64,000 nucleotides of DNA from a phage. Below, one piece after another: positions 14,411 to 30,327 of this stretch (position 1 is its first letter; every line of letters begins with the position of its first letter). Under the pieces are notes generated by a model that saw nothing but the letters and a program-made list of their open reading frames with translations, made no database searches and was not told the origin of the DNA. The position numbers and the translations under genes are program-made. The stretch lies in the sequence record PZ445511.1. One strand, written 5' to 3'.

Positions 14411-14439
14411 TTGCTTTCAGCTCCAAAATTCTGTATAAT
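14411..14439 (+). promoter_or_regulatory. early promoter (TTGCTT-17-TATAAT)
   Basis: promoter family member. Confidence 0.7.
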
Positions 14440-14479
14440 ATATTCATAAATTTGAGAGAACAACAAAAGGAAAATAATT

Positions 14480-16583: not shown

Positions 16584-16612
16584 TTGCTTTAAGCCTTAAA
16601 ATTCTGTATAAT
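16584..16612 (+). promoter_or_regulatory. early promoter (TTGCTT-17-TATAAT)
   Basis: promoter family member. Confidence 0.7.
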
Positions 16613-16644
16613 AACTGTATAAATTGATGAGAGGAAAGCGAACA

Positions 16645-17784: not shown

Positions 17785-18414
17785 TAATAGTGGGGTGCCG
17801 AAACCACTTATGTAACAACACTGCCGTCCTAGTATAATAGGTATTATTAGGGCTTCACCGCCTGAAGATGTGGGTTCGAGTCCCACGGTCGGAAAGAGTT
17901 GGATAACTGGTGCTTCTAATGGCGAAGCAATCGCAGGCAGTTGCGCACTGCCAAAACCACGCGGTAGTTGGTTCCAGGCTAACCAACCACTCTTGAAAAG
18001 TATATACTACGGTTTTGCTTGTTCAGGAAGCTTCGCATCGAAAATCGGAGGTGCGATTTTATCAGACCGCGTGGAGGACGTCTCTCCGTTAAGTGACGAA
18101 AAGTGGGACGATTCAGGTAGAGCTGGATATGGAACACCTATACATATGCGGAGTGCGCACAAAGCATATTGCGGTGGTACTAAACGAAATTAGGAGTCAT
18201 GACCTGCACAAGTTTAGTATGTCATAACCGATGTACATTCAGTACAAAAACCACTGAAGCTAAGATAGATAGTCACCTTGACTTAAACTGGAAGATATTG
18301 TCTGACGGAAGGGCTGCAGAGCTTAATCTGAGGGGGCTGACCCTACCTACCGTCGGGTATCTTTAAGAGTTCTTACGAGAACTCTTAAAGATACCTAAAC
18401 ATTAAGGAATACTG
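17785..18414 (+). ncRNA. structured non-coding region (T-arm-like element and 17-bp perfect hairpin); identity unresolved
   Basis: 630 bp without convincing ORF or promoter; gtgggttcgagtcccac at 17870-17886; hairpin 18357-18394. Confidence 0.3.
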
Positions 18415-18932: not shown

Positions 18933-19004
18933 CGGGGTGTAGTCTAAGGGATAGGCAGGAGTCTTCTAAATTCCTTTATGCAGGTTCGAATCCTGTCACC
19001 TCGG
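18933..19004 (+). tRNA. tRNA-Arg(UCU)
   Basis: hand-folded cloverleaf: acceptor cggggtg/cacctcg, anticodon loop cttctaa, T-loop ttcgaat, CCA encoded. Confidence 0.7.
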
Positions 19005-19033
19005 CCAATCTTATTACCTGTTAGGAAAATAAA

Positions 19034-19234
19034 ATGAAAACACGATATATAGTAAAAGTAGTAGGTGAACATTCGCAAGTAAATACCACGGATGTTACAG
19101 CACTAGCATTTGAGGTAGTCTCCGGTATAGTCATATTTCATAATGGGGATATCAAAGCTCCTGAATTTGCTGTGGATGCTGGCCTGTTTATTTCTGCAAC
19201 TAAAGTAACTGTAGTAGCTAACTCTTCTAAATAA
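19034..19234 (+). CDS. hypothetical protein
   Basis: 66 aa ORF. Confidence 0.4.
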   Translation: MKTRYIVKVVGEHSQVNTTDVTALAFEVVSGIVIFHNGDIKAPEFAVDAGLFISATKVTVVANSSK

Positions 19235-19245
19235 TAAGGAAATAT

Positions 19246-20190
19246 ATGTTTACTAAAAACACTAAAGAACTGACTTCTGAGCAAAAAGTAATTCGTACTA
19301 TTAAACGTTGGGGTGTTGGTGCTGCTATTAGTCTTGGTGCTCTTATTCTGGCTCTCAATTCCTATACAGTTGTTCAGGATGGTACTGTTAAGACCCAAAC
19401 CTTCCTGGGTAAAGTTAGCCCTAATCCTGTATTGCCAGGCTTCCATATTGTTAACCCATTTGCTTCTTTTGATACTTTTAGTACGAAAGATATTTCCATG
19501 AAACTGGATAAACTTCAGGTTCCTAGCCAGGATAAGTTTAAGTCCACTGTTGACATTACCGTTATGTTGCAGTTTGATGGTGCTAAAGCTCCTATGAACC
19601 GTGTTAACGCAGGTACTCAGGATCAAGCTCTGAACAAGTACGTTGAAGAGAAGATGCTGTCTACGATTCGTGAGTTTGGTAAGTCTGTACCAAAAGCACA
19701 AGATCTGTTCGACGCTAAGATTCAGGCTCAACTGCAAACCGCTATTCAGCAAGAAGTAGAAGAGTATGCGCGTCCTTATGGTTACACCGTTAAGCAAGTA
19801 TTCCTTCAGGATATTACTCTGCCACCGGTAATCATGGAACAGGTACAGAACACCAAAGTTCGTGAAGAACAAGTTAACGCTGCAAAAGCTGAACTGGCTC
19901 GTGTTGAACAAGAAGCACAGCAGAAAGTTAAGCAAGCTGAGGCGGATCGTTCCGCTCGTGAAAACATGGCAGTAGCTAACGAACGTGACGCAGATGCTAA
20001 ACTGTACGCAGCTAAGAAAGAAGCTGAAGCTAACGCCGCTCTGCAACGTACCATTACTCCTGAAATGATTCGTTGGAAGCAGCTGGAAGTTGAAATGCTT
20101 CGTGCTGAAAAATACCAAGGTGGTGTACCACAGACTGTTGTCGGTACTGGCTACGATGGTCAAATGATCATGGATATGCGTAACAAGTAA
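19246..20190 (+). CDS. SPFH/band-7 (prohibitin/HflC-like) membrane protein
   Basis: 314 aa; N-terminal TM; PGFHIVNPF motif; long Ala/Glu/Lys-rich coiled coil. Confidence 0.65.
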   Translation: MFTKNTKELTSEQKVIRTIKRWGVGAAISLGALILALNSYTVVQDGTVKTQTFLGKVSPNPVLPGFHIVNPFASFDTFSTKDISMKLDKLQVPSQDKFKSTVDITVMLQFDGAKAPMNRVNAGTQDQALNKYVEEKMLSTIREFGKSVPKAQDLFDAKIQAQLQTAIQQEVEEYARPYGYTVKQVFLQDITLPPVIMEQVQNTKVREEQVNAAKAELARVEQEAQQKVKQAEADRSARENMAVANERDADAKLYAAKKEAEANAALQRTITPEMIRWKQLEVEMLRAEKYQGGVPQTVVGTGYDGQMIMDMRNK

Positions 20191-20214
20191 TAGTTACACG
20201 TAATCTTCGAACCA

Positions 20215-20247
20215 AGCCCGCGTTTCCTTCGAGAGCGCGGGCTTTTC
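20215..20247 (+). terminator. rho-independent terminator
   Basis: agcccgcg...cgcgggct stem followed by TTTT. Confidence 0.6.
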
Positions 20248-20394
20248 TATATTTAAGGCAAAAGAAAAAGCCCATAAGTTATTCAACTAAGGTCTTTAGT
20301 ATTTAATTCTTTAGAATCATATACTATTATTGCAGCAACAACGTGCTAACCTTAAGTGCCCTGCGATTTTCCTCTAAAAAGTTAAAAAATTCGA

Positions 20395-20423
20395 TTGCTT
20401 GAATGCTAAATTCTCTGTATAAT
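20395..20423 (+). promoter_or_regulatory. early promoter (TTGCTT-17-TATAAT)
   Basis: promoter family member; 42-nt promoter-RBS cassette identical to 22256-22297. Confidence 0.7.
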
Positions 20424-20453
20424 ATATTTATAAATTTGAGAGAGGAATCAAAT

Positions 20454-21509
20454 ATGATTAAGACTGGTCTAGTAATTGGTAAGTTCGCACCATTAACGCG
20501 TGGTCATATTAACCTAATAAACACAGCAGCAACTATGTGTGAACGAGTTATTGTTGTAGTTAGTCATGATAATCGTTGGCTGGATAAGCAGAACACACGT
20601 GATAAGGAAGTATTACAGTTAAAGAATCGACTTCGTTGGTTAGAACAAACTTACGCGGATATTGAGCACATTTCGGTAGAGTACATTATTGAAGATGATA
20701 TTCCTGAATATCCGAATGGTTGGCCGGAATATGCTAGAATCCTTAATGAAAATTACGGACATTTGCCTGAGATCACCGTTTTCTCTAGCGAACTAGACTA
20801 TGATGCAGAATATAAGAAATATCTGCCGAAGTTTGGTCATTATATTGTAGATTCTGATCGGACTCGTGTTCCAATCTCAGCTACAATGATTCGTAATGAT
20901 CTTATGAAGTATTGGGAGTTTCTTCCTAGCGTAGTTCGTAAAGATTACGTGCGTAAGGTTGTAATCATTGGGACTGAAAGCTCGGGAAAGACTACTTTAA
21001 CAAAATACCTTGCGAAGCTATACAACACTTCGTGGGTAGAAGAATATGGTCGAACGTATTGTGAAGTTGATCTAGTTGGTAACGAAAATCTGCTTACCAG
21101 CGAAGATTATAGTAAAATTGCGTTCAGACACAAAGAGCTAGAGTTTGAAGCAGAACGTACTGCAAATAAGATCATGTTTGTGGATACAAATGCTTTTATT
21201 ACTGAGTTCTACCACAGACTTTATGAACATAGTAAGAATCCTGTGGTTACAGCAATTGCAAAAGAAGAACATTATGATTTAGTAATTGTTCTAGCGCCTA
21301 CTGTCAAGTGGGTAGATGATGGTTTACGTATTAACTCCGATCGTTCAATTACTTCTGAACTATTCGAGCAGATGAAGAAAGAATTTCCAAATCAGTTCCC
21401 TGAAGGGCGTACTGTTTACATCGACTCTCCGGACTACAAAGTTCGTATGGACGAAGCAGTAAACGCAGTAGACTGGCTGATTCATCACTTTAACGTTGGA
21501 GAGTTTTAA
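20454..21509 (+). CDS. nadR: bifunctional NMN adenylyltransferase / ribosylnicotinamide kinase (NadR-like)
   Basis: nucleotidyltransferase motif GKFAPLTRGH; P-loop GTESSGKTT in C-terminal half. Confidence 0.7.
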   Translation: MIKTGLVIGKFAPLTRGHINLINTAATMCERVIVVVSHDNRWLDKQNTRDKEVLQLKNRLRWLEQTYADIEHISVEYIIEDDIPEYPNGWPEYARILNENYGHLPEITVFSSELDYDAEYKKYLPKFGHYIVDSDRTRVPISATMIRNDLMKYWEFLPSVVRKDYVRKVVIIGTESSGKTTLTKYLAKLYNTSWVEEYGRTYCEVDLVGNENLLTSEDYSKIAFRHKELEFEAERTANKIMFVDTNAFITEFYHRLYEHSKNPVVTAIAKEEHYDLVIVLAPTVKWVDDGLRINSDRSITSELFEQMKKEFPNQFPEGRTVYIDSPDYKVRMDEAVNAVDWLIHHFNVGEF

Positions 21510-21510
21510 T

Positions 21511-22188
21511 ATGACTAACTATCTCGTAAATGACTTTAAAAACTGGAAACCTCTGGAATATCTGTGGCTGTTCATAGCGGTTGTCTTCATTAGTTTAGCA
21601 AACTATAATGGTACAGCTCTAGATTGGGCTACTGCAATAACCAATGTGGTTTGTGTTATTCTGGTTGCAAAAGGACGTATTTCCAACTATATTTGGGGCT
21701 TAGTGGGTGTTCTTACATATGGTATTACAGCTTTAAACGCAGATCTTTATGGTAACGCTGCACTAAACCTGCTATACTACGTTCCTATGCAGTTTTATGG
21801 AATGTACTTATGGCATAAAAATAAGCCAAGTAATCTGCCAGATGTTCCAACTAAGGTTCTGACTAAAGCCCAAGCTCTGCTGACTCTAGGGATTCTAGCA
21901 GTAGCCACGTTAGGGTATGGTAGTTTCTTAGCTACTACGGCTGATCCATTTCCAATGTTGGATGCATTTACTGCTGTAGGTAGTGTGATCGCTATGTGGC
22001 TTATGGTTAAGCAATATGCCGAGCAGTGGCTGATCTGGATTGCTATTAACATTGGTACTGTGTACATTTGGCTTGTAACTGCTCAATCTACAGGTGCATC
22101 TTATGCAATCCTAGCAATGTGGCTAGTATTCTTAGGTAACTCTATTATAGGAGCCTATAAAGGATACTTTGTACGCGTTAACAAATAA
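21511..22188 (+). CDS. pnuC: nicotinamide riboside transporter PnuC-like
   Basis: about 226 aa polytopic membrane protein directly downstream of nadR; GGAGAG RBS. Confidence 0.6.
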   Translation: MTNYLVNDFKNWKPLEYLWLFIAVVFISLANYNGTALDWATAITNVVCVILVAKGRISNYIWGLVGVLTYGITALNADLYGNAALNLLYYVPMQFYGMYLWHKNKPSNLPDVPTKVLTKAQALLTLGILAVATLGYGSFLATTADPFPMLDAFTAVGSVIAMWLMVKQYAEQWLIWIAINIGTVYIWLVTAQSTGASYAILAMWLVFLGNSIIGAYKGYFVRVNK

Positions 22189-22195
22189 AGTAGTT

Positions 22196-22218
22196 ATAGC
22201 CCTCGCTTAGAGGGCTAT
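22196..22218 (+). terminator. hairpin terminator
   Basis: atagccctc-gctta-gagggctat; weak T tract. Confidence 0.45.
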
Positions 22219-22235
22219 TATACAGAAATTTTCAC

Positions 22236-22264
22236 TTGCTTAATATAGAAAATTTCTGTATAAT
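22236..22264 (+). promoter_or_regulatory. early promoter (TTGCTT-17-TATAAT)
   Basis: promoter family member. Confidence 0.7.
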
Positions 22265-22294
22265 ATATTTATAAATTTGAGAGAGGAATCAAAT

Positions 22295-22591
22295 ATGAAA
22301 CGCATTGTACTTGCATTGACTCTAGTATCTACTTCTGTATTTGCTGCTCCACAACAGGAACTTTGTCAAGTTCAAGTTTGTAATAAGCTAGAACGATTTA
22401 CTCTAGACATTTGGTCCCACATTAAAGATAATATGGGTGAACAGTGTTTTGATATTGTTCTGCCAAAAGAACAAGCTGTTCCTGGGGCTGTTCTCAGCTC
22501 AGAATCACGTTGGTGGCAAGGTTCTTCTATCAACCCAACTAAGAAGTCAGTGACACGTATCAAACAAGTATATCAGTGCAACGTTCAGTAA
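22295..22591 (+). CDS. secreted small protein
   Basis: 98 aa with signal peptide MKRIVLALTLVSTSVFA. Confidence 0.55.
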   Translation: MKRIVLALTLVSTSVFAAPQQELCQVQVCNKLERFTLDIWSHIKDNMGEQCFDIVLPKEQAVPGAVLSSESRWWQGSSINPTKKSVTRIKQVYQCNVQ

Positions 22592-22599
22592 AATTTCAC

Positions 22600-22628
22600 T
22601 TGCTTAATGCCGAAATTTTCTGTATAAT
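22600..22628 (+). promoter_or_regulatory. early promoter (TTGCTT-17-TATAAT)
   Basis: promoter family member. Confidence 0.7.
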
Positions 22629-22661
22629 ATATTCATAAATTTGGAAGATTAGGAACTATTT

Positions 22662-23171
22662 ATGTTAGACTATGAGTCTATACTTTATAGATTCCGTTTA
22701 GAAGATGGTGTACTGGTGTGGAATCCGCTCTCCGGAAACTCCAGAGAGGAGAAGATATTTAATACTAAGTTTGCCAATAAACCTGCGGGATCTTTGCACA
22801 AAAGCTCTGGGTATATCAGAGTTAACGTTGATCACCAAGATTACTTAGCTCATATCATAGTATTTATACTATGATATGGGTATAGGCCGGAAATGGTTGA
22901 TCATAAAGACTGCAATAAGTTAAATATACATCCTTTAAATTTAAGAGCAGCGGATAGTACCACTAATACTCATAATGCTAGTAAATCTTCTAGGAATACT
23001 AGCGGATTTAAGGGAGTATCCTACCACAAAGCATCTGGTCAGTGGCAGGGTAGAATAATGTTTAAAGGTAAGTCATACTCCGCAGGGCTGCACAGTACTC
23101 CTGAAGCAGCAAATGAAGCTCTAATTCAACTGAGAGAGAAACTTCATGGGGAATATGCCCGAAATAATTAA
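22662..23171 (+). pseudogene. HNH endonuclease interrupted by in-frame TGA (22872-22874)
   Basis: ORFs 22662..22874 and 22893..23171 are in the same frame and together align with intact HNH genes at 11687 and 17302. Confidence 0.6.
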
Positions 23172-23257
23172 GGAAGAATAGCATAACGGTATTGCAGCAG
23201 ATTGCTAATCTGTCGGTTTGAAACATAGCCTTGTGGGTTCGATTCCCACTTCTTCCG
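23172..23257 (+). tRNA. tRNA-Ser(GCU)
   Basis: type II fold with long variable arm, discriminator G, anticodon loop ttgctaa, CCA encoded; starts 1 nt after HNH stop. Confidence 0.7.
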
Positions 23258-23265
23258 CCAAATTT

Positions 23266-23340
23266 GGTTCTCAAGCTCATTTGGTATGAGCCGTCGCCTC
23301 ATAAGCGAAAGGTAGGTAGGTTCGAATCCTCCGGGAGCCA
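23266..23340 (+). tRNA. tRNA-Met/Ile(CAU)
   Basis: acceptor ggttctc/gggagcc, anticodon loop ctcataa, T-loop ttcgaat; one T-stem mismatch. Confidence 0.5.
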
Positions 23341-23360
23341 CCAGATAACTAGGAGACTTT

Positions 23361-23435
23361 ATGTCACGCTTTCACGAAATTAAGCAAGAACTAGAAGAAT
23401 GTATGTGTACTGAATGTTGGGGTTCTGGCACTTAA
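23361..23435 (+). CDS. possible Cys-rich micro-protein (24 aa)
   Basis: AGGAGA RBS 5 nt upstream of ATG; CMCTECWG motif. Confidence 0.25.
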   Translation: MSRFHEIKQELEECMCTECWGSGT

Positions 23436-23492
23436 TGTTCCAGTGACTGGATTCCCTGATTGGCTGCAAGGTTACGAACTCTAACAAAATTT

Positions 23493-23575
23493 GGATCTGT
23501 GGTGGAATTGGCAATACACACCATGCTTAAAACGTGGCGCTTAAATGATTGAGGGTTCGAGCCCCTCCAGATCCA
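23493..23575 (+). tRNA. tRNA-Leu(UAA)
   Basis: acceptor ggatctg/cagatcc, anticodon loop cttaaaa, long variable arm, discriminator A, CCA encoded. Confidence 0.7.
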
Positions 23576-23594
23576 CCAAATTAAGGAAGTAAAA

Positions 23595-23717
23595 ATGAAA
23601 TCTATTAAGAAAGCTATTCGTGAACTTATCCGTTGTCGCTTCCATAACATCAAGGCTTCAACTAATGGTACTACTTACGATCGCTATGATCCTAAGTTTG
23701 GCTTACATTCTAAATAA
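23595..23717 (+). CDS. hypothetical small basic protein (40 aa)
   Basis: AAGGAAG RBS; separate frame from ORF track 23620..23937. Confidence 0.35.
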   Translation: MKSIKKAIRELIRCRFHNIKASTNGTTYDRYDPKFGLHSK

Positions 23718-23730
23718 CTGGAGAAAACAA

Positions 23731-23937
23731 ATGGCTAATCCTGAAATTACGGCACAACGTTTTATGCTGAAAGGAATTATTGCTGAAGCAGGCGTGACAC
23801 AAGAAGTGGAAGATTTCCATAAGCAGTTCCTAAATATTCTCACTCAAGCCAAAGAGCTAGGAGAGAAAGAACATGGCGCGGCTATTATGGCAATCACATT
23901 GGTTGGGCTTGATCTGGCAGAAGAATCAGGAGTTTAA
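23731..23937 (+). CDS. hypothetical protein (68 aa)
   Basis: in-frame ATG with GGAG RBS inside ORF 23620..23937. Confidence 0.5.
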   Translation: MANPEITAQRFMLKGIIAEAGVTQEVEDFHKQFLNILTQAKELGEKEHGAAIMAITLVGLDLAEESGV

Positions 23938-23967
23938 CTTCTCCAAGCAGAAATTTTAAAAATGTAC

Positions 23968-23997
23968 TTGCTTTTTACTTAAGATTTCTGCTATAAT
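23968..23997 (+). promoter_or_regulatory. early promoter (TTGCTT-18-TATAAT)
   Basis: promoter family member. Confidence 0.65.
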
Positions 23998-24026
23998 AGT
24001 TATATAAGTTGATGAGAGGAATCAGA

Positions 24027-24302
24027 ATGTTAAAACGTTTTGCAGCAACTGGTATTGAAAGCTCAGTATGTAAATCCTGGGGTGGTTGGGAAGGTGAGAT
24101 CGAGTGGCTTTATTTCTACAATGTAGAACTTCTTCCAGAGATCAAAGCTCAATGTATTGAGGCTGGTATGGCTCCTGATGCTACGGCTGATGTTGAAATC
24201 AGCATGAATAAGCTAGAGGGTCGAGTAGTCACTGTTACTGATGAAGGTGAAGAGGTATTCGAACTTCCATTCACTTTGAAAGTCACTCCTTCATTTGATT
24301 AA
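24027..24302 (+). CDS. hypothetical protein
   Basis: ORF 24009..24302 (TTG); ATG 24027 with GAGAGGAA RBS. Confidence 0.5.
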   Translation: MLKRFAATGIESSVCKSWGGWEGEIEWLYFYNVELLPEIKAQCIEAGMAPDATADVEISMNKLEGRVVTVTDEGEEVFELPFTLKVTPSFD

Positions 24303-24310
24303 CTGATACA

Positions 24311-24351
24311 GCACTTGAGCAAGTTCTTTAAAATTTGACTTGCTCAAGTGC
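24311..24351. repeat. 14-bp perfect inverted repeat overlapping promoter -35
   Basis: gcacttgagcaagt / acttgctcaagtgc separated by 13 bp. Confidence 0.8.
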
Positions 24352-24369
24352 CTTAAAACTTGATATAAT
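24340..24369 (+). promoter_or_regulatory. promoter (TTGCTC-18-TATAAT) ahead of a tRNA block
   Basis: hexamers with 18-bp spacer; no large ORF before tRNA-Tyr. Confidence 0.6.
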
Positions 24370-24493
24370 AGTTACCTAATTTGGAAACATATCTGAATGA
24401 GAAGTAATTAAGCGAGTTGCTTTGAGGGATAAAGTCAGGATAGCCGGAAATATTCCACCTTGAGTTTAACCGACTTACTTTTCATTCAAATAT

Positions 24494-24571
24494 GGGGGAT
24501 TGGCTCAGTGGCGACGGCGCCTGGCTGTAGACCGGGTATATCACGCGGAGGTTCGAGTCCTCCATCCCCCA
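24494..24571 (+). tRNA. tRNA-Tyr(GUA)
   Basis: acceptor gggggat/atccccc, anticodon loop ctgtaga, 10-nt variable region, discriminator A, CCA. Confidence 0.6.
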
Positions 24572-24582
24572 CCAAAATTAAT

Positions 24583-24654
24583 GCACCTATCGTCTAATGG
24601 TTAGGACATCAGGATTTCAATCTGAGAATTGAACTCCGATTCTCCGTGGGTGTG
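24583..24654 (+). tRNA. tRNA-like, probable tRNA-Glu(UUC) with degenerate T-arm
   Basis: acceptor gcaccta/tgggtgt with G-U pairs, good D and anticodon stems, loop atttcaa, CCA encoded. Confidence 0.4.
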
Positions 24655-24666
24655 CCAATTAATAAT

Positions 24667-24734
24667 TGGGGTACACATAGGTTGCTAGTGGGCCTCCAAA
24701 ACCCATGAAAAGGTTTCGAATACCTTTACCCCTG
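24667..24734 (+). tRNA. tRNA-Trp(CCA)-like with shortened D-arm
   Basis: 68 nt; anticodon loop ctccaaa, T-loop ttcgaat, 1-72 U-U mismatch; CCA encoded. Confidence 0.4.
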
Positions 24735-24743
24735 CCAATATTT

Positions 24744-24815
24744 GCACCTTTAGCTGAGATGGATTAGCGCTTGCCTGAAGAGCTTGAGAGGTTCGTTCAA
24801 TTCGAACAGGGTGCA
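24744..24815 (+). tRNA. tRNA-Phe(GAA)-like
   Basis: acceptor gcacctt/agggtgc, anticodon loop ctgaaga, two U-U mismatches in anticodon stem, CCA encoded. Confidence 0.5.
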
Positions 24816-24835
24816 CCAATTTGAAGGAGATGCTG

Positions 24836-25108
24836 ATGCATCCTGAAAACTTCTTTATATACTGTACTAGTCCTTTGCTTAAACGCCGGATTAATAAAGT
24901 ATATCACTACAGAGCTAGTCAACAGCCTTATGTTTATGATTCTAGTGGAGATCATATTCCACTTGAGCAACTAGGGACTGATTATATGGTTTTGAAGCAC
25001 TTTAATGAGGCGAAGATCTCTAGCGTTCATAACCGACAAAACTCTAAAACGTGGTGGCATAAGAAGCGTAAGAAAGGCATCAAATTTCTTAAAAATGTAG
25101 TTGCTTAA
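24836..25108 (+). CDS. hypothetical basic protein
   Basis: ORF 24821..25108 (TTG); ATG 24836 with AGGAG RBS. Confidence 0.5.
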   Translation: MHPENFFIYCTSPLLKRRINKVYHYRASQQPYVYDSSGDHIPLEQLGTDYMVLKHFNEAKISSVHNRQNSKTWWHKKRKKGIKFLKNVVA

Positions 25109-25129
25109 ATCCTTAAAGTTCTGTATAAT
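25101..25129 (+). promoter_or_regulatory. early promoter (TTGCTT-17-TATAAT)
   Basis: promoter family member, overlaps 3' end of upstream ORF. Confidence 0.7.
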
Positions 25130-25157
25130 TATTACATAAATTGAACTGGAGAACTAG

Positions 25158-25346
25158 ATGAAAGCACCTAAACCGAAATTAGTTAAGTTCGACTGCTGTG
25201 ATACTGAAATCTTATTTACTAAGTTTGGTGAATTTAAGATGTGTGAATGTGGAACATGTGGTTACGATCATGGTGATGGATATTATTGCAGAACCCTAGG
25301 GCCTTCTGAACTAATCCACTTCTCATGGCCGGAAAGTAAAGAATAA
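25158..25346 (+). CDS. Cys-rich small protein (putative zinc ribbon)
   Basis: 62 aa; CC..C.C..C..C pattern. Confidence 0.5.
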   Translation: MKAPKPKLVKFDCCDTEILFTKFGEFKMCECGTCGYDHGDGYYCRTLGPSELIHFSWPESKE

Positions 25347-25348
25347 TA

Positions 25349-25421
25349 CGACCGTTGGCTGAATGGCTTAGGCGGAGGCCTGCAAAACCTCCTTATGTGA
25401 GTTCGAATCTCATGCGGTCGT
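25349..25421 (+). tRNA. tRNA-Cys(GCA)
   Basis: acceptor cgaccgt/gcggtcg, anticodon loop ctgcaaa, T-loop ttcgaat, CCA encoded. Confidence 0.6.
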
Positions 25422-25426
25422 CCAAT

Positions 25427-25567
25427 TTGCTGAAAGAATTGTTAAATCAATTCAGGCACGCGTAGGAACACTGCCTCAGTAATTGAAAGATGAGGCACGG
25501 TTTGGAGAGGTATGCCGCTACACGCTACGGTGCTAACTCCGTCTAGGTGAAAATCCTAGTCAGCAAT
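25427..25567 (+). ncRNA. 141-nt tRNA-like RNA (acceptor-like stem plus T-arm-like hairpin around a long insert)
   Basis: ttgctga...tcagcaa terminal pairing; ctagg-tgaaaat-cctag hairpin; internal hairpins; not a canonical tRNA. Confidence 0.3.
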
Positions 25568-25576
25568 ATAAATTTA

Positions 25577-25656
25577 GGGTCGTTAGCCAAGCGGTTTGGC
25601 GGTGGACTGTTAATCCATGTCGAAAGACAACGTAGGTTCGAATCCTACACGGCCCG
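25577..25656 (+). tRNA. tRNA with GUU (Asn) anticodon on a type-II-like body
   Basis: acceptor gggtcgt/acggccc, 3-bp D stem, anticodon stem gtgga/tccat, loop ctgttaa, 13-nt variable arm, discriminator G, CCA. Confidence 0.5.
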
Positions 25657-25762
25657 CCATATTCTATGTAGGATTAAGTAAACCGGTAGCCAACCAGCTA
25701 TCATTACTGATATCGAATTCAGTCACAGATACCATTTTTCACTAACAACTGAGGAAATAGAT

Positions 25763-25948
25763 ATGACAACTCGTGCAATTGCTCGACTAGAAGCTGATCG
25801 TGATAATCTGATTAATAATATTAAGGTTCGTGGTAATATTATTAAGGCTCTGAAAGCTGAACTTCTTGAAGAACTTCAAGGTCAAGTAGAGCGTCGTGAA
25901 GCTCTAAAAGAGGTTGAGGAAGCTATCGAAAAACTCAAGGCTGAATAA
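25763..25948 (+). CDS. hypothetical coiled-coil protein
   Basis: 61 aa with GAGGAAA RBS. Confidence 0.45.
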   Translation: MTTRAIARLEADRDNLINNIKVRGNIIKALKAELLEELQGQVERREALKEVEEAIEKLKAE

Positions 25949-25951
25949 ATT

Positions 25952-26533
25952 ATGCACGGAATATCCTTACCCATTCCAGGGTTTGAGGAGTACTTAGTAA
26001 GTTTGGATGGGTTAGTATTTAGTATCAAATCAAACAAAATACTAACCCCAATAACCAGTAATTATGGATACTTATCTATACGTCTCCATAAAAATGGTCA
26101 ACAGAGAAATACCGGTGTACATAGGATTTTAGCATGTGCATTTAAGAAATTACCAAGTCTAGACTCTGAACTAGAAGTTGACCATATTAACACAGACATT
26201 ACTTATTGGGGTCTTAATAACTTACAAGTGCTCACAAAAGAGCAGCATCTAGAAAAGACTTTAAAAGATAAAGGATTTAGTAAACTAAATCATGATAATT
26301 GTTGTAAGGATTGTGGTAAAGCTATTTCTTTAAAAGCTGAAAAATGTCAGGAGTGCTCTTCACATAAACCAAAAGATATCTCTATAACTAAAGAAATAAT
26401 CGAGGTTACAGTAAGAGAGCTAGGCTGGTCAGGTGCAGGGAGAAAGTTAAATTATTCAGATAATGGGTTGCGTAAAAGATACACTTCTTTAGGAGGCAAT
26501 CCTAAAGAACTTAAAAAGTTAAAGGTACTATAG
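25952..26533 (+). CDS. HNH homing endonuclease with C-terminal Cys4 zinc ribbon
   Basis: 193 aa; EVDHIN..N motif; CKDCG...CQEC; 3' end overlaps tRNA-Asp by 10 nt. Confidence 0.7.
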   Translation: MHGISLPIPGFEEYLVSLDGLVFSIKSNKILTPITSNYGYLSIRLHKNGQQRNTGVHRILACAFKKLPSLDSELEVDHINTDITYWGLNNLQVLTKEQHLEKTLKDKGFSKLNHDNCCKDCGKAISLKAEKCQECSSHKPKDISITKEIIEVTVRELGWSGAGRKLNYSDNGLRKRYTSLGGNPKELKKLKVL

Positions 26534-26595
26534 TCTAACGGTTAGGATACTCCCCTGTCACGGGAGAGGTAGGGTTTCGATTACCCTTAGTACCG
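26524..26595 (+). tRNA. tRNA-Asp(GUC)
   Basis: acceptor ggtacta/tagtacc, anticodon stem ctccc/gggag, loop ctgtcac, T-loop ttcgatt, CCA. Confidence 0.75.
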
Positions 26596-26604
26596 CCAAA
26601 TTAT

Positions 26605-26678
26605 ACATCCATAGCTCAACTGGTCAGAGCTACCGCCTCTTAAGCGGAGGGTTGAAGGTTCAAGTCCTTCTGGGAGTA
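26605..26678 (+). tRNA. tRNA-Lys(CUU)
   Basis: D-stem gctc/gagc, anticodon loop ctcttaa, T-arm gaagg-ttcaagt-ccttc, CCA; one acceptor mismatch. Confidence 0.5.
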
Positions 26679-26686
26679 CCAAACAA

Positions 26687-26880
26687 ATAGAGTAAAGGCT
26701 ACAGTAGGTGCACCCTTACGGACTGCTACACCGGACTCTATTCATTAACAAACATTCTAGCGTGGTGGAGAGGGGACACCAGCTGTGCGAGGGTAGAAGC
26801 TTGTTCGATTCAAGTGAAAGAATGGTTCTCGTAAATCCGCAGCAGTGATAGTAGGTTCAAGTCCTACCTAGATTGACTTA
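26687..26880 (+). ncRNA. unresolved tRNA-like RNAs (two T-arm-like hairpins, one 66-nt acceptor-paired element)
   Basis: atagagt...actctat pairing; T-arm-like gcttg-ttcgatt-caagt and gtagg-ttcaagt-cctac without matching acceptors. Confidence 0.3.
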
Positions 26881-26884
26881 TTAT

Positions 26885-26955
26885 GCGTTCGTAGTTAAAA
26901 GGTATAATTTTTGGTTGCCAACCAGAAGTTGAGGGTTCGATTCCCTCCGACCGCA
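26885..26955 (+). tRNA. tRNA-Gly(GCC)
   Basis: anticodon stem tttgg/ccaga, loop ttgccaa, T-arm gaggg-ttcgatt-ccctc, CCA. Confidence 0.6.
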
Positions 26956-26959
26956 CCAA

Positions 26960-27180
26960 ATTTAGGGTTCTGCTTCCTAGAGAACGGACTCCTAGATAAA
27001 CAAGGCGATGAGTTTCCGGCCGGTTCTAGTCGCTGAAAATCCTCCCGACCAGGTAGGTGTAGGTAAACGAAAGTTTACTTATTGAGTAGGTTCCGATAGA
27101 TCGGCGGATCTATTCTGGCATTTAAGAGAAGTCTCGCAAACTTCTTTGTCAGCAGAGCGTTTGAAGCGTGAGGTGGCCTA
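26960..27180 (+). ncRNA. non-coding tRNA-cluster spacer with hairpins, candidate small RNA
   Basis: 220 nt, no ORF or canonical tRNA; gtcgctgaaaatcctcccgacc element resembles the T-arm-like hairpin of the 25427 element. Confidence 0.25.
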
Positions 27181-27209
27181 CACAATAAGTAAATTTATTA
27201 AAAACTCAT

Positions 27210-27238
27210 TTGCTATTTCACTTAATTCTCTTTATAAT
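27210..27238 (+). promoter_or_regulatory. early promoter (TTGCTA-17-TATAAT) for a tRNA block
   Basis: promoter family member directly upstream of tRNA-Pro. Confidence 0.7.
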
Positions 27239-27270
27239 ATATCTTATAAAGTGAGTTAACAAAGAATATT

Positions 27271-27345
27271 CTCCGTGTAGCTCAGTTTGGCCAGAGCGTT
27301 CCGTTTGGGGCGGTAGGGTCGGGGGTTCAAATCCTCCCACGGAGA
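27271..27345 (+). tRNA. tRNA-Pro(UGG)
   Basis: acceptor ctccgtg/cacggag perfect, anticodon loop tttgggg, T-loop ttcaaat, CCA. Confidence 0.65.
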
Positions 27346-27354
27346 CCAAACAAT

Positions 27355-27429
27355 TGCGGGTTAGATCTCTGGTAGAGATCGCTAGTCTCATAAGCTAGAA
27401 AGAGGTAGGTTCGATTCCTACACCCGCTT
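27355..27429 (+). tRNA. tRNA-Met/Ile(CAU), 1-72 unpaired
   Basis: anticodon stem ctagt/gctag, loop ctcataa, T-arm gtagg-ttcgatt-cctac, CCA; position 1-72 U-U. Confidence 0.5.
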
Positions 27430-27451
27430 CCAATTTAATAGAGGATACGAA

Positions 27452-27616
27452 ATGAAATTATTTCGATTGGTAGTAAGTGATAGACGGTCTAGCAAAGATC
27501 GTTCGAAGTATACCTTAGCCCATTATGGGAAAGATGAAAATGAAGTAATGGCTGAATTTGGTATTAATCATCGCTACTTAGAAGTTTACTCTATTAAGGA
27601 AGTTTATCCGTATTAA
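27452..27616 (+). CDS. hypothetical small protein (54 aa)
   Basis: GAGGA RBS 6 nt before ATG; stop abuts tRNA-Lys. Confidence 0.4.
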   Translation: MKLFRLVVSDRRSSKDRSKYTLAHYGKDENEVMAEFGINHRYLEVYSIKEVYPY

Positions 27617-27691
27617 GGGTCGTTAGCTCAATTGGTTAGTAGCACTTGCCTTTTAAGCAATAGGTTGAAGGTTCGAGTCCTTCACGACCCA
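27617..27691 (+). tRNA. tRNA-Lys(UUU)
   Basis: acceptor gggtcgt/acgaccc perfect, anticodon loop cttttaa, T-arm gaagg-ttcgagt-ccttc, CCA. Confidence 0.7.
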
Positions 27692-27703
27692 CCAAATTAC
27701 TTT

Positions 27704-27774
27704 GCTCGGTTAGTTTAATGGGAGAACCCCGTCTTTACACGGCGGTTGCGATAGTTCGATTCTATCACCGAGTA
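27704..27774 (+). tRNA. tRNA-Val(UAC)
   Basis: anticodon stem ccgtc/ggcgg, loop tttacac, T-arm gatag-ttcgatt-ctatc, CCA. Confidence 0.7.
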
Positions 27775-27802
27775 CCAATTAACTCAAAATAAGGAATTGC
27801 AA

Positions 27803-28156
27803 ATGCAATTATCAAGCAAGATTCAAGGCTATTTTGGTCATGTAACAATGGAGTTCGCTATCTCTAAAGGTTGGGATTTCGAGCAAGATCTAGCTGAGTT
27901 CTACAAAGATATTGATCTGAACGTACCATACATGGGACTCTCCACTGGTCAAGAGATCACAGAAGGCGATGTGTTCAAGGCAAGTCAAGGTGAGGTAACA
28001 CCTAATTTTGCCAAGTTCTGGTTAGGACTTACTTTGAAGGAAGATGCACCAGAGGATGGTGTGGTTATGCAGAGTATGCACTCTGGAAGCTCTGATTACC
28101 TTTTCGTTAGCGACGTTAAGGAACTACAAGAAATCGCTAAAAATGTACTTGCTTGA
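27803..28156 (+). CDS. hypothetical protein
   Basis: ORF 27797..28156; ATG 27803 with AAGGA RBS; stop overlaps next promoter -35. Confidence 0.55.
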   Translation: MQLSSKIQGYFGHVTMEFAISKGWDFEQDLAEFYKDIDLNVPYMGLSTGQEITEGDVFKASQGEVTPNFAKFWLGLTLKEDAPEDGVVMQSMHSGSSDYLFVSDVKELQEIAKNVLA

Positions 28157-28177
28157 TGCTTAATTTCTTGTTATAAT
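28149..28177 (+). promoter_or_regulatory. early promoter (TTGCTT-17-TATAAT) for a tRNA block
   Basis: promoter family member. Confidence 0.7.
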
Positions 28178-28179
28178 AT

Positions 28180-28439
28180 TTATATAAATTGATGAGGAGA
28201 AATCCTCATCAAAGTTCACTAAGGTATTAGCTCGACCTAGGGCTGGCTGCCAAAAAGCACAATTGCAATTAGACCCCTAATGGCGGGGGATACTTTGCAA
28301 TAAGTTCTAGATTAGTCCACTAGATTCAGTGGCAACTGAATAGTGTATCGGGTTTGTGAAGAGCGGTTATCCTCTACTGGCTAATGTCTGAGGGTAATAC
28401 GCACACCGAGCTAATAGCCTTAGTAAACTTAAAGATTTT
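28180..28439 (+). ncRNA. 260-nt structured leader or small RNA ahead of the tRNA-Ala pair
   Basis: hairpins gatgagga-gaaa-tcctcatc (28191-28210) and ccact-agattc-agtgg; no ORF. Confidence 0.3.
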
Positions 28440-28515
28440 GGGGAATGGGTCTGCTTGGAGTGGACACCTCGCTTGCACCGAGGATATCAGAAGAGTTCGA
28501 ATCTCTTATTCTCCA
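28440..28515 (+). tRNA. tRNA-Ala(UGC)-like
   Basis: G3-U70 pair, anticodon stem cctcg/cgagg, loop cttgcac, T-arm aagag-ttcgaat-ctctt, CCA; atypical D and variable lengths. Confidence 0.5.
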
Positions 28516-28523
28516 CCAAATTC

Positions 28524-28596
28524 GGGGTCATAGGTTATTTGGTTAAACTTACTGCCTTGCAAGCAGTGGAACTCAGTTCAATTCTGAGTGACTCCA
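28524..28596 (+). tRNA. tRNA-Ala(UGC)
   Basis: G3-U70 pair, anticodon stem actgc/gcagt, loop cttgcaa, T-arm ctcag-ttcaatt-ctgag, CCA. Confidence 0.65.
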
Positions 28597-28618
28597 CCAA
28601 ACAAATTAAGGAAATAAT

Positions 28619-28837
28619 ATGGTATTCTTAGCAGCCTCTGTAGTTCTTGCAGCTTTAGCACTAGCTATCTATTTTAGAACTATTAAAGATTTAGCTAAAG
28701 AAAAGAAAACTTTCTTTACTGATTATTCTTGGGGCGCTCCATATAACGTCCGCTTTATCAGCTTAGAAGCTATGCTGATAATGGTATTCAGTGGCATAGG
28801 TTCCATTGTTGCAGGGTTACTATTTATTTCTAACTAA
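28619..28837 (+). CDS. small membrane protein
   Basis: 72 aa with two hydrophobic helices. Confidence 0.5.
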   Translation: MVFLAASVVLAALALAIYFRTIKDLAKEKKTFFTDYSWGAPYNVRFISLEAMLIMVFSGIGSIVAGLLFISN

Positions 28838-28844
28838 ATAAAAT

Positions 28845-28922
28845 GGGGATGTGGCGAAATTGGCAGACGCGCTAGATTTAGGTTCTAGTCTTCGGGTGTG
28901 GGTTCGAGTCCCTCCATCCCTA
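28845..28922 (+). tRNA. tRNA-Leu(UAG)
   Basis: anticodon stem ctaga/tctag perfect, loop tttaggt, 9-nt variable region, discriminator A, CCA. Confidence 0.6.
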
Positions 28923-29099
28923 CCAAACATTGGATTAACTCATGATGAAAACTCCTATAACTGATATCTGGTTAGCTGTTAATACATCAACTAAAGAGTA
29001 TGTGTTTATAGAGTATGGTCAGAGGTATGACCAAAAGATGTATAATCTCATACTTCCAGTATCTGCTAATGAAGTTTATGATTTAATCCTGAGATCTAC

Positions 29100-29189
29100 G
29101 GAAGAGCAAATCGATTAGGTGACGAAAACCGCTTGGAAAGTGGCTGACTTGTTAAAGCAGGCTTGAGAGTTCGAATCTCTCTTCTTCCG
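29100..29189 (+). tRNA. tRNA-Ser(GGA)
   Basis: 90 nt, acceptor ggaagag/ttcttcc, anticodon loop ttggaaa, long variable arm, discriminator G, CCA. Confidence 0.55.
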
Positions 29190-29213
29190 CCAAACAACTA
29201 ATAGGGAATATAA

Positions 29214-29456
29214 ATGAAAGTCAAGATTATGATGTTGGATTTAGCTAATGATAAGTTTTTCTTGCGTCATACATTCCCTAGTAAGCAAGCTTTAGAGTTT
29301 CATATCAAGTACGCAATGGGCATGAAACTTCCTGAGCGAGAAATATTTGATAAAGCATGTGATACTGGAGTTATTTATGTATGGCAAACAACCTATCATG
29401 ATAATCCAGAAGATCTTCGAAAAGAAGTAGAACAAATACTAGAAGATAGTACGTAG
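29214..29456 (+). CDS. hypothetical protein
   Basis: 80 aa; 3' end overlaps tRNA-Ser(UGA) by 16 nt. Confidence 0.5.
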   Translation: MKVKIMMLDLANDKFFLRHTFPSKQALEFHIKYAMGMKLPEREIFDKACDTGVIYVWQTTYHDNPEDLRKEVEQILEDST

Positions 29457-29527
29457 TGGTATGTAACCGGTCTTGAAAACCGGCCCGCTGTAGTGATACG
29501 GTGATGGTTCGACTCCATTATCTTCTG
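29441..29527 (+). tRNA. tRNA-Ser(UGA)
   Basis: acceptor agaagat/atcttct perfect, anticodon stem ccggt/accgg, loop cttgaaa, long variable arm, discriminator G, CCA. Confidence 0.7.
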
Positions 29528-29530
29528 CCA

Positions 29531-29667
29531 AATCTTGAAGTATGCCGGAATCGGTAGACGGGGCTTCCTAAAGGGCGTAAGGGGAACATCCACTCCTCAT
29601 AAGATACCCGAAAACGAGGCTGAGATAACTGGTCTATCTCGTGAAGGTTCGAGTCCTTCTGCTTCTT
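29531..29667 (+). ncRNA. tRNA-like RNA with canonical T-arm but no clean cloverleaf
   Basis: T-arm gaagg-ttcgagt-ccttc at 29643-29659 preceded by hairpin gagata-actggtc-tatctc; best acceptor partner aggggaa at 29580 has a mismatch; no CCA. Confidence 0.3.
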
Positions 29668-29669
29668 GA

Positions 29670-29855
29670 TATTCATCAATGGCTCAAAGTGTAACGGTGC
29701 TATTTGATGCTCTTAGTAAGACTTTCCCGACATGCGTTCGGGAGTAAGCTGCTAAGGCTAGAGTAGAAGAGTTTCGGAGAGCCGCCACAATTGAAGTCTT
29801 TAGAATGGGTATCGCCCTTTAGCCCCTCCGAAAGGGATAACTAGAGATTTCAATT
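29670..29855 (+). ncRNA. structured non-coding segment bounded by 11-bp inverted repeat
   Basis: ccacaattgaa (29776-29786) and ttcaattgtgg (29849-29859) flank a GC hairpin ccctttagcccctccgaaaggg. Confidence 0.25.
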
Positions 29856-29929
29856 GTGGCTATATCATAATTGGTTAATGATCCTGATTGTGAATCAGGC
29901 CTATGTGGATTCGAATTCCACTAGCCACC
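29856..29929 (+). tRNA. tRNA-His(GUG)
   Basis: acceptor gtggcta/tagccac perfect, anticodon stem cctga/tcagg, loop ttgtgaa, T-arm gtgga-ttcgaat-tccac, CCA. Confidence 0.7.
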
Positions 29930-29938
29930 CCAAATATT

Positions 29939-30010
29939 GCGTCCTTATTTCAACGGAAAGAATGTAAAGCTACGAACTTTACGATCGGGGTTCGATTCCC
30001 TGAGGATGCA
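29939..30010 (+). tRNA. tRNA-Arg(ACG)
   Basis: anticodon stem taaag/cttta, loop ctacgaa, T-arm cgggg-ttcgatt-ccctg, CCA. Confidence 0.7.
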
Positions 30011-30037
30011 CCAATTAACTTAAACAGGAAATAAAAT

Positions 30038-30238
30038 ATGGCTGATTTCTGCAAAGAATGCTCTATTGATATGTGGGGCAGAGATACTGGTGATCTTTCT
30101 GGTCTGATTACAGAAGCCGAAGTTAAAGAAGGCTATGGTGCTGTTGTAATCTGTGAAGGTTGTGGCATTATCCGTGTTGATCATAATGGTAAACGTCTAG
30201 AAGAACCTGATCCAATCGCCACGGTTCCTGTAGAATAA
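30038..30238 (+). CDS. Cys-rich small protein (CxxC...CxxC)
   Basis: 66 aa; CKEC...CEGCG. Confidence 0.5.
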   Translation: MADFCKECSIDMWGRDTGDLSGLITEAEVKEGYGAVVICEGCGIIRVDHNGKRLEEPDPIATVPVE

Positions 30239-30245
30239 AAATTAT

Positions 30246-30318
30246 TGGGATGTAGATCAATTGGTAGATCGTCGGCCTCTGACTCCGAAGGTTCCACGTT
30301 CGATCCGTGGCATCCCAG
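30246..30318 (+). tRNA. tRNA-Gln(CUG)
   Basis: U1-A72, anticodon loop ctctgac, T-arm ccacg-ttcgatc-cgtgg, CCA. Confidence 0.65.
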
Positions 30319-30327
30319 CCAAACAAT

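What the first reader, a model, noticed from the sequence alone, without database searches (positions are those of the whole stretch)
20395..22218. Phage NAD+ salvage pair (NadR-like and PnuC-like), with a Sir2-family gene elsewhere in the window
A promoter, a bifunctional NMN adenylyltransferase/ribosylnicotinamide kinase and a PnuC-type nicotinamide riboside importer form one operon; a sirtuin-like NAD-dependent enzyme is at 314..1165. Phage-encoded NAD+ replenishment has been reported to counter NAD+-depleting bacterial immunity (Thoeris, Sir2/TIR-based systems). This import-based route would be a different way to the same end.
Basis: partly seen in the sequence, partly recalled or inferred. 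Interest (0 to 1): 0.55.

Follow-up and report, generated by a model that had tools for sequence, protein, structure and literature searches.

The report
Known phage NAD+ rebuilding operon (NARP3)
This is a T5-like Salmonella/E. coli phage carrying a two-gene operon that imports nicotinamide riboside and turns it into NAD+. A 2026 paper showed that a 99%-identical gene pair lets phages escape NAD+-depleting bacterial immunity, so the finding is real and correctly read, but already known.

Summary
The interval 20395..22218 holds a strong T5-type early promoter, a NadR-like NMN adenylyltransferase/ribosylnicotinamide kinase without the HTH domain (20454..21509), a PnuC-like nicotinamide riboside transporter (21511..22188, one base after the nadR stop) and a closing hairpin.

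The window is an Epseptimavirus (T5-like phage). The two proteins are 349/351 and 223/225 residues identical to Bas30_86 and Bas30_87 of Escherichia phage TrudiRoth. That pair was named NARP3 and characterised in Sci Adv, Aug 2026 (PMC13464706). The paper reports nicotinamide riboside (NR) binding, NR->NMN->NAD+ catalysis, crystal structures 9X6H/9X6F, and rescue of T7 and lambda from Sir2-HerA and DSR1. Every residue mutated in that paper is conserved here. The idea had already been stated in 2022 and 2024.

The Sir2-like gene (314..1165, minus strand) is real, but I found no sign that it belongs to the system. It is a core T5-like gene, present in T5, which lacks NARP3. It sits near a HAD 'Swiss-army-knife' RNA-repair phosphatase gene.

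One small addition: the cassette occupies a variable slot and is flanked by direct repeats of the promoter/leader.

Still untested: the role of the cassette in its native phage.

The parts
20214..20244 (+). Intrinsic terminator of the upstream SPFH/band-7 gene (19246..20190). It marks the left boundary of the transcription unit.
   Evidence: 12-bp stem with 7 GC pairs followed by a T-run. Conserved in TrudiRoth.
20395..20423 (+). T5 P-N25-type sigma-70 early promoter: -35 TTGCTT at 20395..20400, 17-nt spacer, -10 TATAAT at 20418..20423.
   Evidence: Sequence read. Aligns with the annotated T5 promoter P-N25. Identical in TrudiRoth.
20424..20453 (+). Conserved leader carrying the ribosome-binding site (ATAAATTTGAGAGAGGAATCAAAT).
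   Evidence: The 21-mer TTGAGAGAGGAATCAAATATG occurs exactly twice in the window, at 20436 and 22277, with 0 expected by chance. Seven promoter/leader copies of this class are found at up to 3 mismatches.
20454..21509 (+). NadR-like bifunctional enzyme (351 aa). An N-terminal NMN adenylyltransferase domain is followed by a C-terminal ribosylnicotinamide kinase domain. There is no HTH domain. Orthologue of Bas30_86.
   Evidence: Family matches. 349/351 identical to Bas30_86 and to PDB 9X6F/9X6H. Motifs found: TRGH at 15, ISATMIR at 141, Walker A GTESSGKT at 173, WVDDGLR at 286. All 17 residues named in the paper are present.
21511..22188 (+). PnuC-like nicotinamide riboside transporter (225 aa). 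Orthologue of Bas30_87. Its start lies one base after the nadR stop, which suggests translational coupling.
   Evidence: Family matches. 223/225 identical to Bas30_87. E = 1e-32 to Neisseria mucosa PnuC, PDB 4QTN. N45, Q94, N180, W173 and W176 are present.
22196..22218 (+). GC-rich hairpin after pnuC. It is a possible weak terminator or RNA 3'-end stabiliser.
   Evidence: Folds at -18 kcal/mol, z = -3.57, with 0 of 200 shuffles as stable. The terminator scan did not call it because there is no strong T-run.
22236..22297 (+). Second copy of the same promoter and leader, driving the next gene (98-aa signal-peptide protein, 22295..22591). It marks the right boundary and forms a direct repeat flanking the cassette.
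   Evidence: Identical to the nadR promoter/leader from TCTGTATAAT through the ATG.
314..1165 (-). Sir2-family (CobB-like) gene named in the finding. It is an NAD+-using enzyme but is probably not part of the NAD+ rebuilding operon.
   Evidence: Pfam SIR2, E = 2e-21. Best solved relative is E. coli CobB, 1S5P. GAGLS at 9, TTNVD at 119 and HAHG at 138 are present, but no Cys lies in the zinc-ribbon stretch. It is syntenic with T5.102 in phage T5, which lacks NadR/PnuC.

Best explanation
The interval is a self-contained early transcription unit of a T5-like phage (Epseptimavirus). It encodes the two-gene NAD+ reconstitution pathway now called NARP3.

Proposed sequence of events. After DNA entry, host RNA polymerase fires a very strong P-N25-type promoter. 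The PnuC-like membrane protein takes up nicotinamide riboside (NR) from the medium. The HTH-less NadR-like enzyme phosphorylates NR to NMN in its C-terminal P-loop kinase domain, then adenylates NMN to NAD+ in its N-terminal (T/H)xGH nucleotidyltransferase domain, using two ATP. This keeps NAD+ available when host NADase defences (Sir2-HerA, DSR1 and probably others) are triggered, so replication can finish.

Shown here: gene structure, domain content, conserved motifs and residues, operon signals, and 99% identity to the characterised pair.

Shown elsewhere for the 99%-identical orthologues: NR binding, both enzymatic steps, NAD+ restoration and rescue of T7, lambda and Klebsiella phages.

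Inferred: early timing of expression, translational coupling, and that counter-defence is the role selected for in the native phage.
For: Family matches above the curated cut-offs.

The NadR match covers profile positions 54-407 of 411, so the N-terminal HTH is missing.

Identity is 349/351 to Bas30_86 and 223/225 to Bas30_87. The four substitutions (K51Q, V109I; I57V, I213M) lie outside every residue tested in the paper.

The crystal structures 9X6F/9X6H match at E = 1e-240.

All catalytic and binding residues and the canonical motifs are conserved.

Experimental demonstration is in PMC13464706. Co-expression of both genes raises the plating of T7 and lambda 10^3-10^4-fold on Sir2-HerA strains. 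NAD+/NADH pools are restored. Rescue depends on NR, with an EC50 of 3.6-5.6 uM. Point mutants in either protein abolish the effect.

Operon signals are present: terminator, promoter, a 1-nt gene spacing, hairpin, then the next promoter.

Distribution is patchy, as expected of an accessory gene. About 200 of roughly 400-440 related T5-like records carry the full cassette. T5 itself lacks it, and one phage has an empty slot.
Against: No experiment has been done in a native NARP3-carrying phage. The authors state this limitation. All functional data come from plasmid expression, with unrelated phages as reporters.

The route needs external NR, whose availability in the gut or in sewage is unknown.

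The hosts already encode NadR and PnuC, so what the phage copies add is inferred (no HTH and no repression, strong early promoter), not measured.

Expression timing in this phage is inferred from promoter class only.
Confidence: 0.88

Rival explanations
1. Housekeeping supply rather than counter-defence. The operon mainly feeds the phage's own NAD+-consuming enzymes (NAD+-dependent DNA ligase, the Sir2-like enzyme) or offsets NAD+ loss after host shut-off. Any escape from NADase defences would be a side effect.
For: T5-like phages encode an NAD-dependent DNA ligase (T5.116) and a Sir2-like protein (T5.102, and window 314..1165). The Sir2 operon and the NadR/PnuC operon use the same class of early promoter. 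No native-phage test of counter-defence exists.
Against: Phage T5 and many relatives carry the ligase and the Sir2-like gene but no NadR/PnuC. The phage's own NAD+ consumers therefore do not require the cassette. The cassette behaves as an accessory island in a variable slot, which is typical of anti-defence genes. The 99%-identical pair does defeat Sir2-HerA and DSR1. The two roles are not mutually exclusive.
Confidence: 0.2
2. The PnuC-like protein carries another substrate (other Pnu-family members carry thiamine or riboflavin precursors) or acts as a membrane exclusion factor, and the NadR-like protein acts as a regulator.
For: The PnuC-like protein scores far below the cut-off of the enterobacterial PnuC subfamily model (67.5 against 335 bits), so it is not a close copy of the host transporter. 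The published NR-binding residue N45 aligns with a glycine in Neisseria PnuC.
Against: It passes the general PnuC equivalog model, 120 against 42 bits. The near-identical Bas30_87 binds NR with a Kd of about 0.66 uM, and rescue is NR-dose dependent. The NadR-like protein has no HTH domain, so it has no DNA-binding module.
Confidence: 0.03
3. The cassette is a neutral passenger. It would be carried along by recombination between repeated promoter/leader sequences and would have no selected function in this phage.
For: The cassette is flanked by identical promoter/leader repeats and is missing from close relatives.
Against: Both ORFs are intact and nearly invariant across about 200 phage genomes: 196 records hold a NadR-like protein at 95% identity or more. 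All functional residues are kept. The unit is driven by a very strong promoter.
Confidence: 0.03

Closest known systems
NARP3 (Bas30_86/Bas30_87 of Escherichia phage TrudiRoth; Yan et al., Sci Adv 2026, PMC13464706; PDB 9X6H/9X6F)
   Same: Same genus. Same gene order, spacing, promoter and flanks. Proteins are 99.4% and 99.1% identical, and all tested residues are conserved.
   Different: Only four conservative substitutions. The downstream neighbours differ slightly: a split HNH/AP2 ORF here, against a tRNA-Ser directly in TrudiRoth.
Bacterial NadR + PnuC nicotinamide riboside salvage (Salmonella/E. coli, Haemophilus influenzae; PDB 1LW7, 8X7F, 4QTN)
   Same: Same two-domain NMNAT + RNK enzyme and the same transporter family. 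The motifs (T/H)xGH, ISxTxxR, Walker A and WVDDGLR are conserved.
   Different: The phage enzyme lacks the N-terminal HTH repressor domain. The first His of HxGH is Thr (TRGH). In the phage the genes are adjacent and co-transcribed, whereas in E. coli they are at separate loci. The PnuC-like protein is not of the enterobacterial subfamily.
NARP2 (Nampt/NadV + NMNAT-Nudix NatV, e.g. Vibrio phage KVP40)
   Same: Ends with an NMN adenylyltransferase step and restores NAD+ against NADase defences.
   Different: Starts from intracellular nicotinamide + PRPP, with no transporter and no kinase domain.
NARP1 (Adps + Namat)
   Same: A two-gene phage operon that rebuilds NAD+ and counters Sir2-HerA-type defences.
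   Different: Recycles the cleavage products ADPR + nicotinamide through ADPR-PP. The enzymes are unrelated and no import is involved.

Membership tests
NARP3 (phage NadR-like + PnuC-like NAD+ reconstitution operon) | Adjacent, co-oriented nadR-like gene followed by a pnuC-like gene in a phage genome | tested here: met
   CDS at 20454..21509 and 21511..22188, same strand, 1-nt gap. The phage is an Epseptimavirus.
NARP3 (phage NadR-like + PnuC-like NAD+ reconstitution operon) | NadR-like protein with NMNAT and RNK domains but no HTH domain | tested here: met
   Pfam CTP_transf_like at 24-164 and AAA_28 at 185-331. The PRK08099 match spans profile positions 54-407 of 411.
NARP3 (phage NadR-like + PnuC-like NAD+ reconstitution operon) | Residues shown by mutagenesis to be required: Bas30_86 K10, F11, S37, E80, P84, G89, F110, S112, D115, V139, I141, E230, D275; Bas30_87 N45, Q94, N180 | tested here: met
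   All are present at the same positions. Residue list taken.
NARP3 (phage NadR-like + PnuC-like NAD+ reconstitution operon) | Restores NAD+ and phage plating in cells with NADase defences, in an NR-dependent manner | not testable with these tools
   Shown for the 99%-identical TrudiRoth pair only, expressed from plasmids. Never tested in a native phage.
NadR family (trifunctional regulator/NMNAT/RNK) | N-terminal HTH DNA-binding domain that represses NAD genes | tested here: not met
   The first ~53 profile positions are not matched, and the protein starts directly with the GKFxP nucleotidyltransferase motif. It is therefore a NadR-like enzyme, not a regulator.
NadR family (trifunctional regulator/NMNAT/RNK) | Nucleotidyltransferase (H/T)xGH and ISxTxxR motifs; kinase Walker A and lid | tested here: met
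   TRGH at 15, ISATMIR at 141, GTESSGKT at 173, WVDDGLR at 286. Aligned to H. influenzae NadR, 1LW7, at E = 2e-55.
PnuC nicotinamide riboside transporter family | Full-length match to the PnuC models and to the solved PnuC, with the conserved Q and WxxWxxxN of the binding site | tested here: met
   PF04973 covers positions 2-171 of 175, E = 2.5e-43. TIGR01528 scores 120 bits against a cut-off of 42. 4QTN matches at E = 1e-32, with Q94 and W173/W176/N180 aligned to identical residues.
Sirtuin (Sir2/CobB) family, for the gene at 314..1165 | Rossmann NAD+-binding GAGxS motif, NxD motif and catalytic His | tested here: met
   GAGLS at 9, TTNVD at 119, HAHG at 138, aligned to CobB 1S5P.
Sirtuin (Sir2/CobB) family, for the gene at 314..1165 | Zinc-ribbon module with four Cys between the catalytic His and the FGE motif | tested here: not met
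   The only Cys residues are at 41, 54, 207 and 223, with none in 141-180. The CobB cysteines align to non-Cys residues. It is a sirtuin-fold enzyme of a phage-specific clade, not a canonical deacylase.

The most novel reading that the evidence does not exclude
In its native T5-like phage the cassette may not be primarily an anti-immunity device. It could be an exchangeable 'NAD+ supply' module in a hot spot whose contents are swapped by recombination between the repeated P-N25-type promoter/leader sequences.

Its benefit could depend on the phage's own NAD+ consumers, namely the zinc-less Sir2-like enzyme of a predicted RNA-repair set and the NAD+-dependent ligase, in NR-rich but NAD+-poor hosts. 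The alternative cassette in the same slot of phage T5 (T5.077-079, no known domains) might then be a different accessory or anti-defence module.
Probability: 0.2. Interest if true: 0.4.

Novelty: already known. Interest (0 to 1): 0.15.

Why it matters
NAD+ depletion is a common end-point of bacterial anti-phage systems (Sir2-HerA, DSR, Thoeris, short Argonautes and others). Phage pathways that rebuild NAD+ therefore defeat several of them at once, and they are candidates for arming therapeutic phages.

This window adds another natural carrier of the import-based route (NARP3) but no new principle.

Two things remain useful. First, nobody has yet tested the pathway in a native phage. Second, the cassette sits in a swap-prone slot, which gives natural with/without pairs among T5-like phages for that test.

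Tried and rejected
1. Rfam scan of 19900..22700 at a permissive threshold, looking for an NAD+ riboswitch or 'pnuC motif' leader. It returned only two sub-threshold chance hits, STnc560 and Trp leader, at E = 0.1-0.4. I found no sign of riboswitch control.

2. The generic promoter scan did not pick up the true promoter, because TTGCTT scores 3/6 against TTGACA. I settled this by aligning to the annotated T5 promoters instead.

3. Functional link between the Sir2-like gene and the operon. Rejected as unsupported: it lies in a different strand and unit, it is conserved in T5 without NadR/PnuC, and it neighbours a HAD_SAK_2 RNA-repair phosphatase gene.

4. ORF-finder start codons (ATG 20403 for nadR, TTG 21496 for pnuC). 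Rejected in favour of 20454 and 21511, which sit behind ribosome-binding sites, agree with GenBank and reproduce the published residue numbering.

5. Two Python calls failed because locus L002 was not available to the script machine. I replaced them with BLASTP comparisons.

6. A literature search for 'NARP3' alone returned only unrelated uses of the string. The searches combining PnuC, NadR and phage terms turned up only the 2024 preprint and the 2026 paper as treating the NadR/PnuC pair as a phage NAD+ pathway.

7. I did not run the large protein-database searches or structure prediction. A crystal structure of a 99%-identical protein already exists.

Full report
**What is in the sequence**

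ORF listing of 18.5-24.5 kb shows two consecutive plus-strand ORFs, 20403..21509 and 21496..22188. A 283-aa minus-strand ORF lies at 314..1165.

Pfam and NCBIfam place the first ORF in the NadR family. It has a cytidylyltransferase-like domain plus an AAA_28 kinase domain. The NadR equivalog PRK08099 scores 259.6 bits against a cut-off of 201, matching profile positions 54-407 of 411, so the N-terminal HTH is absent.

The second ORF falls in the PnuC family (PF04973, E = 2.5e-43; TIGR01528, 120 bits against 42). The third falls in the SIR2 family (E = 2e-21).

The real starts are ATG 20454 and ATG 21511. Both sit behind ribosome-binding sites, agree with GenBank annotation of identical phages, and reproduce the residue numbering of the published proteins. 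The nadR stop and the pnuC start are one base apart.

**Transcription signals**

- The upstream SPFH gene ends with a strong intrinsic terminator at 20214..20244.
A 17-nt spacer and TATAAT at 20418..20423 follow.
- This promoter and its leader align column for column with the promoter annotated as P-N25 in phage T5.
- Eighteen bases further on, the same promoter and leader are repeated, identical from TCTGTATAAT through the ATG, in front of the next gene.

The pair is therefore a self-contained two-gene unit under a T5-type early promoter. A permissive Rfam scan found no riboswitch.

**Where the window comes from**

The 2-kb stretch is 100% identical to Salmonella phages vB_SenS-3, RA40 and bux, which are Demerecviridae of the genus Epseptimavirus. 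In these records both genes are already annotated as NadR/NMN adenylyltransferase and PnuC-like transporter. The wider window matches the layout of Salmonella phage S147. That layout has nucleotide-metabolism genes, a block of 28 tRNA genes, lysis genes and the pre-early A1/A2/dmp genes.

**What is already known**

Iyer et al. 2022 listed phage NadR among the NAD+-synthesis enzymes that counter NADase effectors.

Osterman et al. 2024 noted that phage NadR genes usually sit in an operon with PnuC. They wrote that this could be a further NAD+ reconstitution pathway, and listed the BASEL phages that carry it.

Yan et al. (Sci Adv, 12 Aug 2026, PMC13464706) then characterised Bas30_86/87 of phage TrudiRoth and named the pair NARP3. 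Their results were:

- The transporter is a trimer that binds NR (Kd about 0.66 uM).
- The enzyme converts NR to NMN to NAD+ in vitro.
- Structures 9X6H and 9X6F were solved.
- Co-expression of both genes restores NAD+/NADH and raises T7 and lambda plating 10^3-10^4-fold on Sir2-HerA strains. It also counters DSR1.
- Rescue depends on external NR (EC50 3.6-5.6 uM).
- Point mutants in either protein abolish the effect.

**Comparison with the characterised pair**

The TrudiRoth locus is 99% identical in DNA. The proteins differ at two positions each: K51Q and V109I in the enzyme, I57V and I213M in the transporter. The PDB search returns 9X6F/9X6H at E = 1e-240.

All 17 enzyme residues and all three transporter residues named in the paper are present. 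So are the canonical motifs TRGH, ISATMIR, GTESSGKT and WVDDGLR, and the WxxWxxxN stretch of the PnuC binding site. Membership in NARP3 is met on every feature that sequence can test. The functional feature rests on the near-identical orthologues.

**The Sir2-family gene**

It is real and CobB-like (best solved relative 1S5P). It keeps the GAGLS, TTNVD and HAHG motifs. It has no cysteine where sirtuins carry their zinc ribbon.

It lies 19 kb away on the other strand, in a unit headed by its own promoter of the same class, at about 1828..1885 on the minus strand.

Phage T5 has the syntenic gene (T5.102, downstream of nrdD) but no NadR/PnuC. Homologues occur in 979 phage records, including several groups outside the T5-like phages.

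In S147, three genes downstream of the Sir2-like gene and mostly beyond the window's left edge, is a HAD_SAK_2 'Swiss-army-knife' RNA-repair phosphatase gene. This matches the third neighbourhood type that Iyer et al. describe for a phage sirtuin clade. They predict that this clade removes RNA 2'-phosphates in the manner of KptA.

I therefore treat it as an NAD+ user encoded by the same phage, not as part of the operon.

**A small addition**

The cassette is accessory. Of 394-443 related T5-like records that match the flanks, about 170-200 hold the full cassette.

In T5 the same slot, between the SPFH gene T5.080 and T5.076, holds three unrelated genes on the other strand (T5.077-079), which have no Pfam hits.

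In Escherichia phage vB_EcoS_HZ_ZJUN2 the slot is empty. There, a promoter/leader nearly identical to the one upstream of nadR directly drives the Toprim gene.

With identical promoter/leader copies on both sides of the cassette, gain and loss by homologous recombination is a reasonable inference. It is not shown.

**Verdict**

The remaining open point is the native role, since all published tests used plasmid expression and reporter phages. The main rival, housekeeping NAD+ supply for the phage's own ligase and sirtuin, is weakened because T5 carries those consumers without the cassette.

Noticed in passing
window 20395..20456 and 22236..22297; compare L007:1080-1400 and L005 (T5 37800..39800): The NadR/PnuC cassette is flanked by direct repeats of an identical promoter/leader and sits in a variable slot. 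Phage T5 holds T5.077-079 there, on the other strand and with no known domains. Phage vB_EcoS_HZ_ZJUN2 has an empty slot with the same promoter driving the Toprim gene. This suggests cassette exchange by recombination at promoter repeats.
   Followed up: partly
window 314..1165 (-) and S147 locus L003:5349-5891 (-): The Sir2-like protein lacks all zinc-ribbon cysteines. It lies three genes upstream of a HAD_SAK_2 RNA-repair phosphatase gene, followed by two DUF7415 genes. This fits a predicted, untested phage NAD+-dependent RNA-repair set, in a phage that carries 28 tRNA genes.
   Followed up: partly
window 1828..1856(-), 14434..14462, 16607..16635, 20418..20446, 22259..22287, 40832..40860, 61650..61678(-): Seven copies of the T5 P-N25-type -10/leader module (TATAAT-N7-TAAATTTGAGAGAGGA, up to 3 mismatches, 0 expected by chance) mark early transcription units across the window.
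   Followed up: partly
window 22295..22591 (+): A 98-aa protein with a signal-peptide-like N-terminus (MKRIVLALTLVSTSVFA...) and no Pfam match lies directly after the cassette, under the duplicated promoter. It is conserved in NARP3-carrying phages (bux_103, bas30_0088, S147 orf86). Its function is unknown.
   Followed up: no
window 22662..22874 and 22893..23171 (+): Two short consecutive ORFs. The second has weak, sub-threshold matches to an HNH_3 fragment and an AP2 domain. It looks like a split or decayed homing endonuclease next to tRNA-Ser. S147 has a Toprim-like gene at this position instead.
   Followed up: partly
window 17822..17895 (+): ARAGORN calls a tRNA with anticodon TCA ('tRNA-SeC', a possible opal suppressor) ahead of the main block of 27 further tRNA genes (18933..31692).
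   Followed up: no
Escherichia phage IrmaTschudi MZ501076.1 69622..74225 (hit H108): In this BASEL phage the match to the cassette is split into two pieces spanning 4.6 kb instead of 2.9 kb, and extra hypothetical genes are listed alongside nadR and pnuC. This implies an insertion of about 1.7 kb whose position I did not determine.
   Followed up: no
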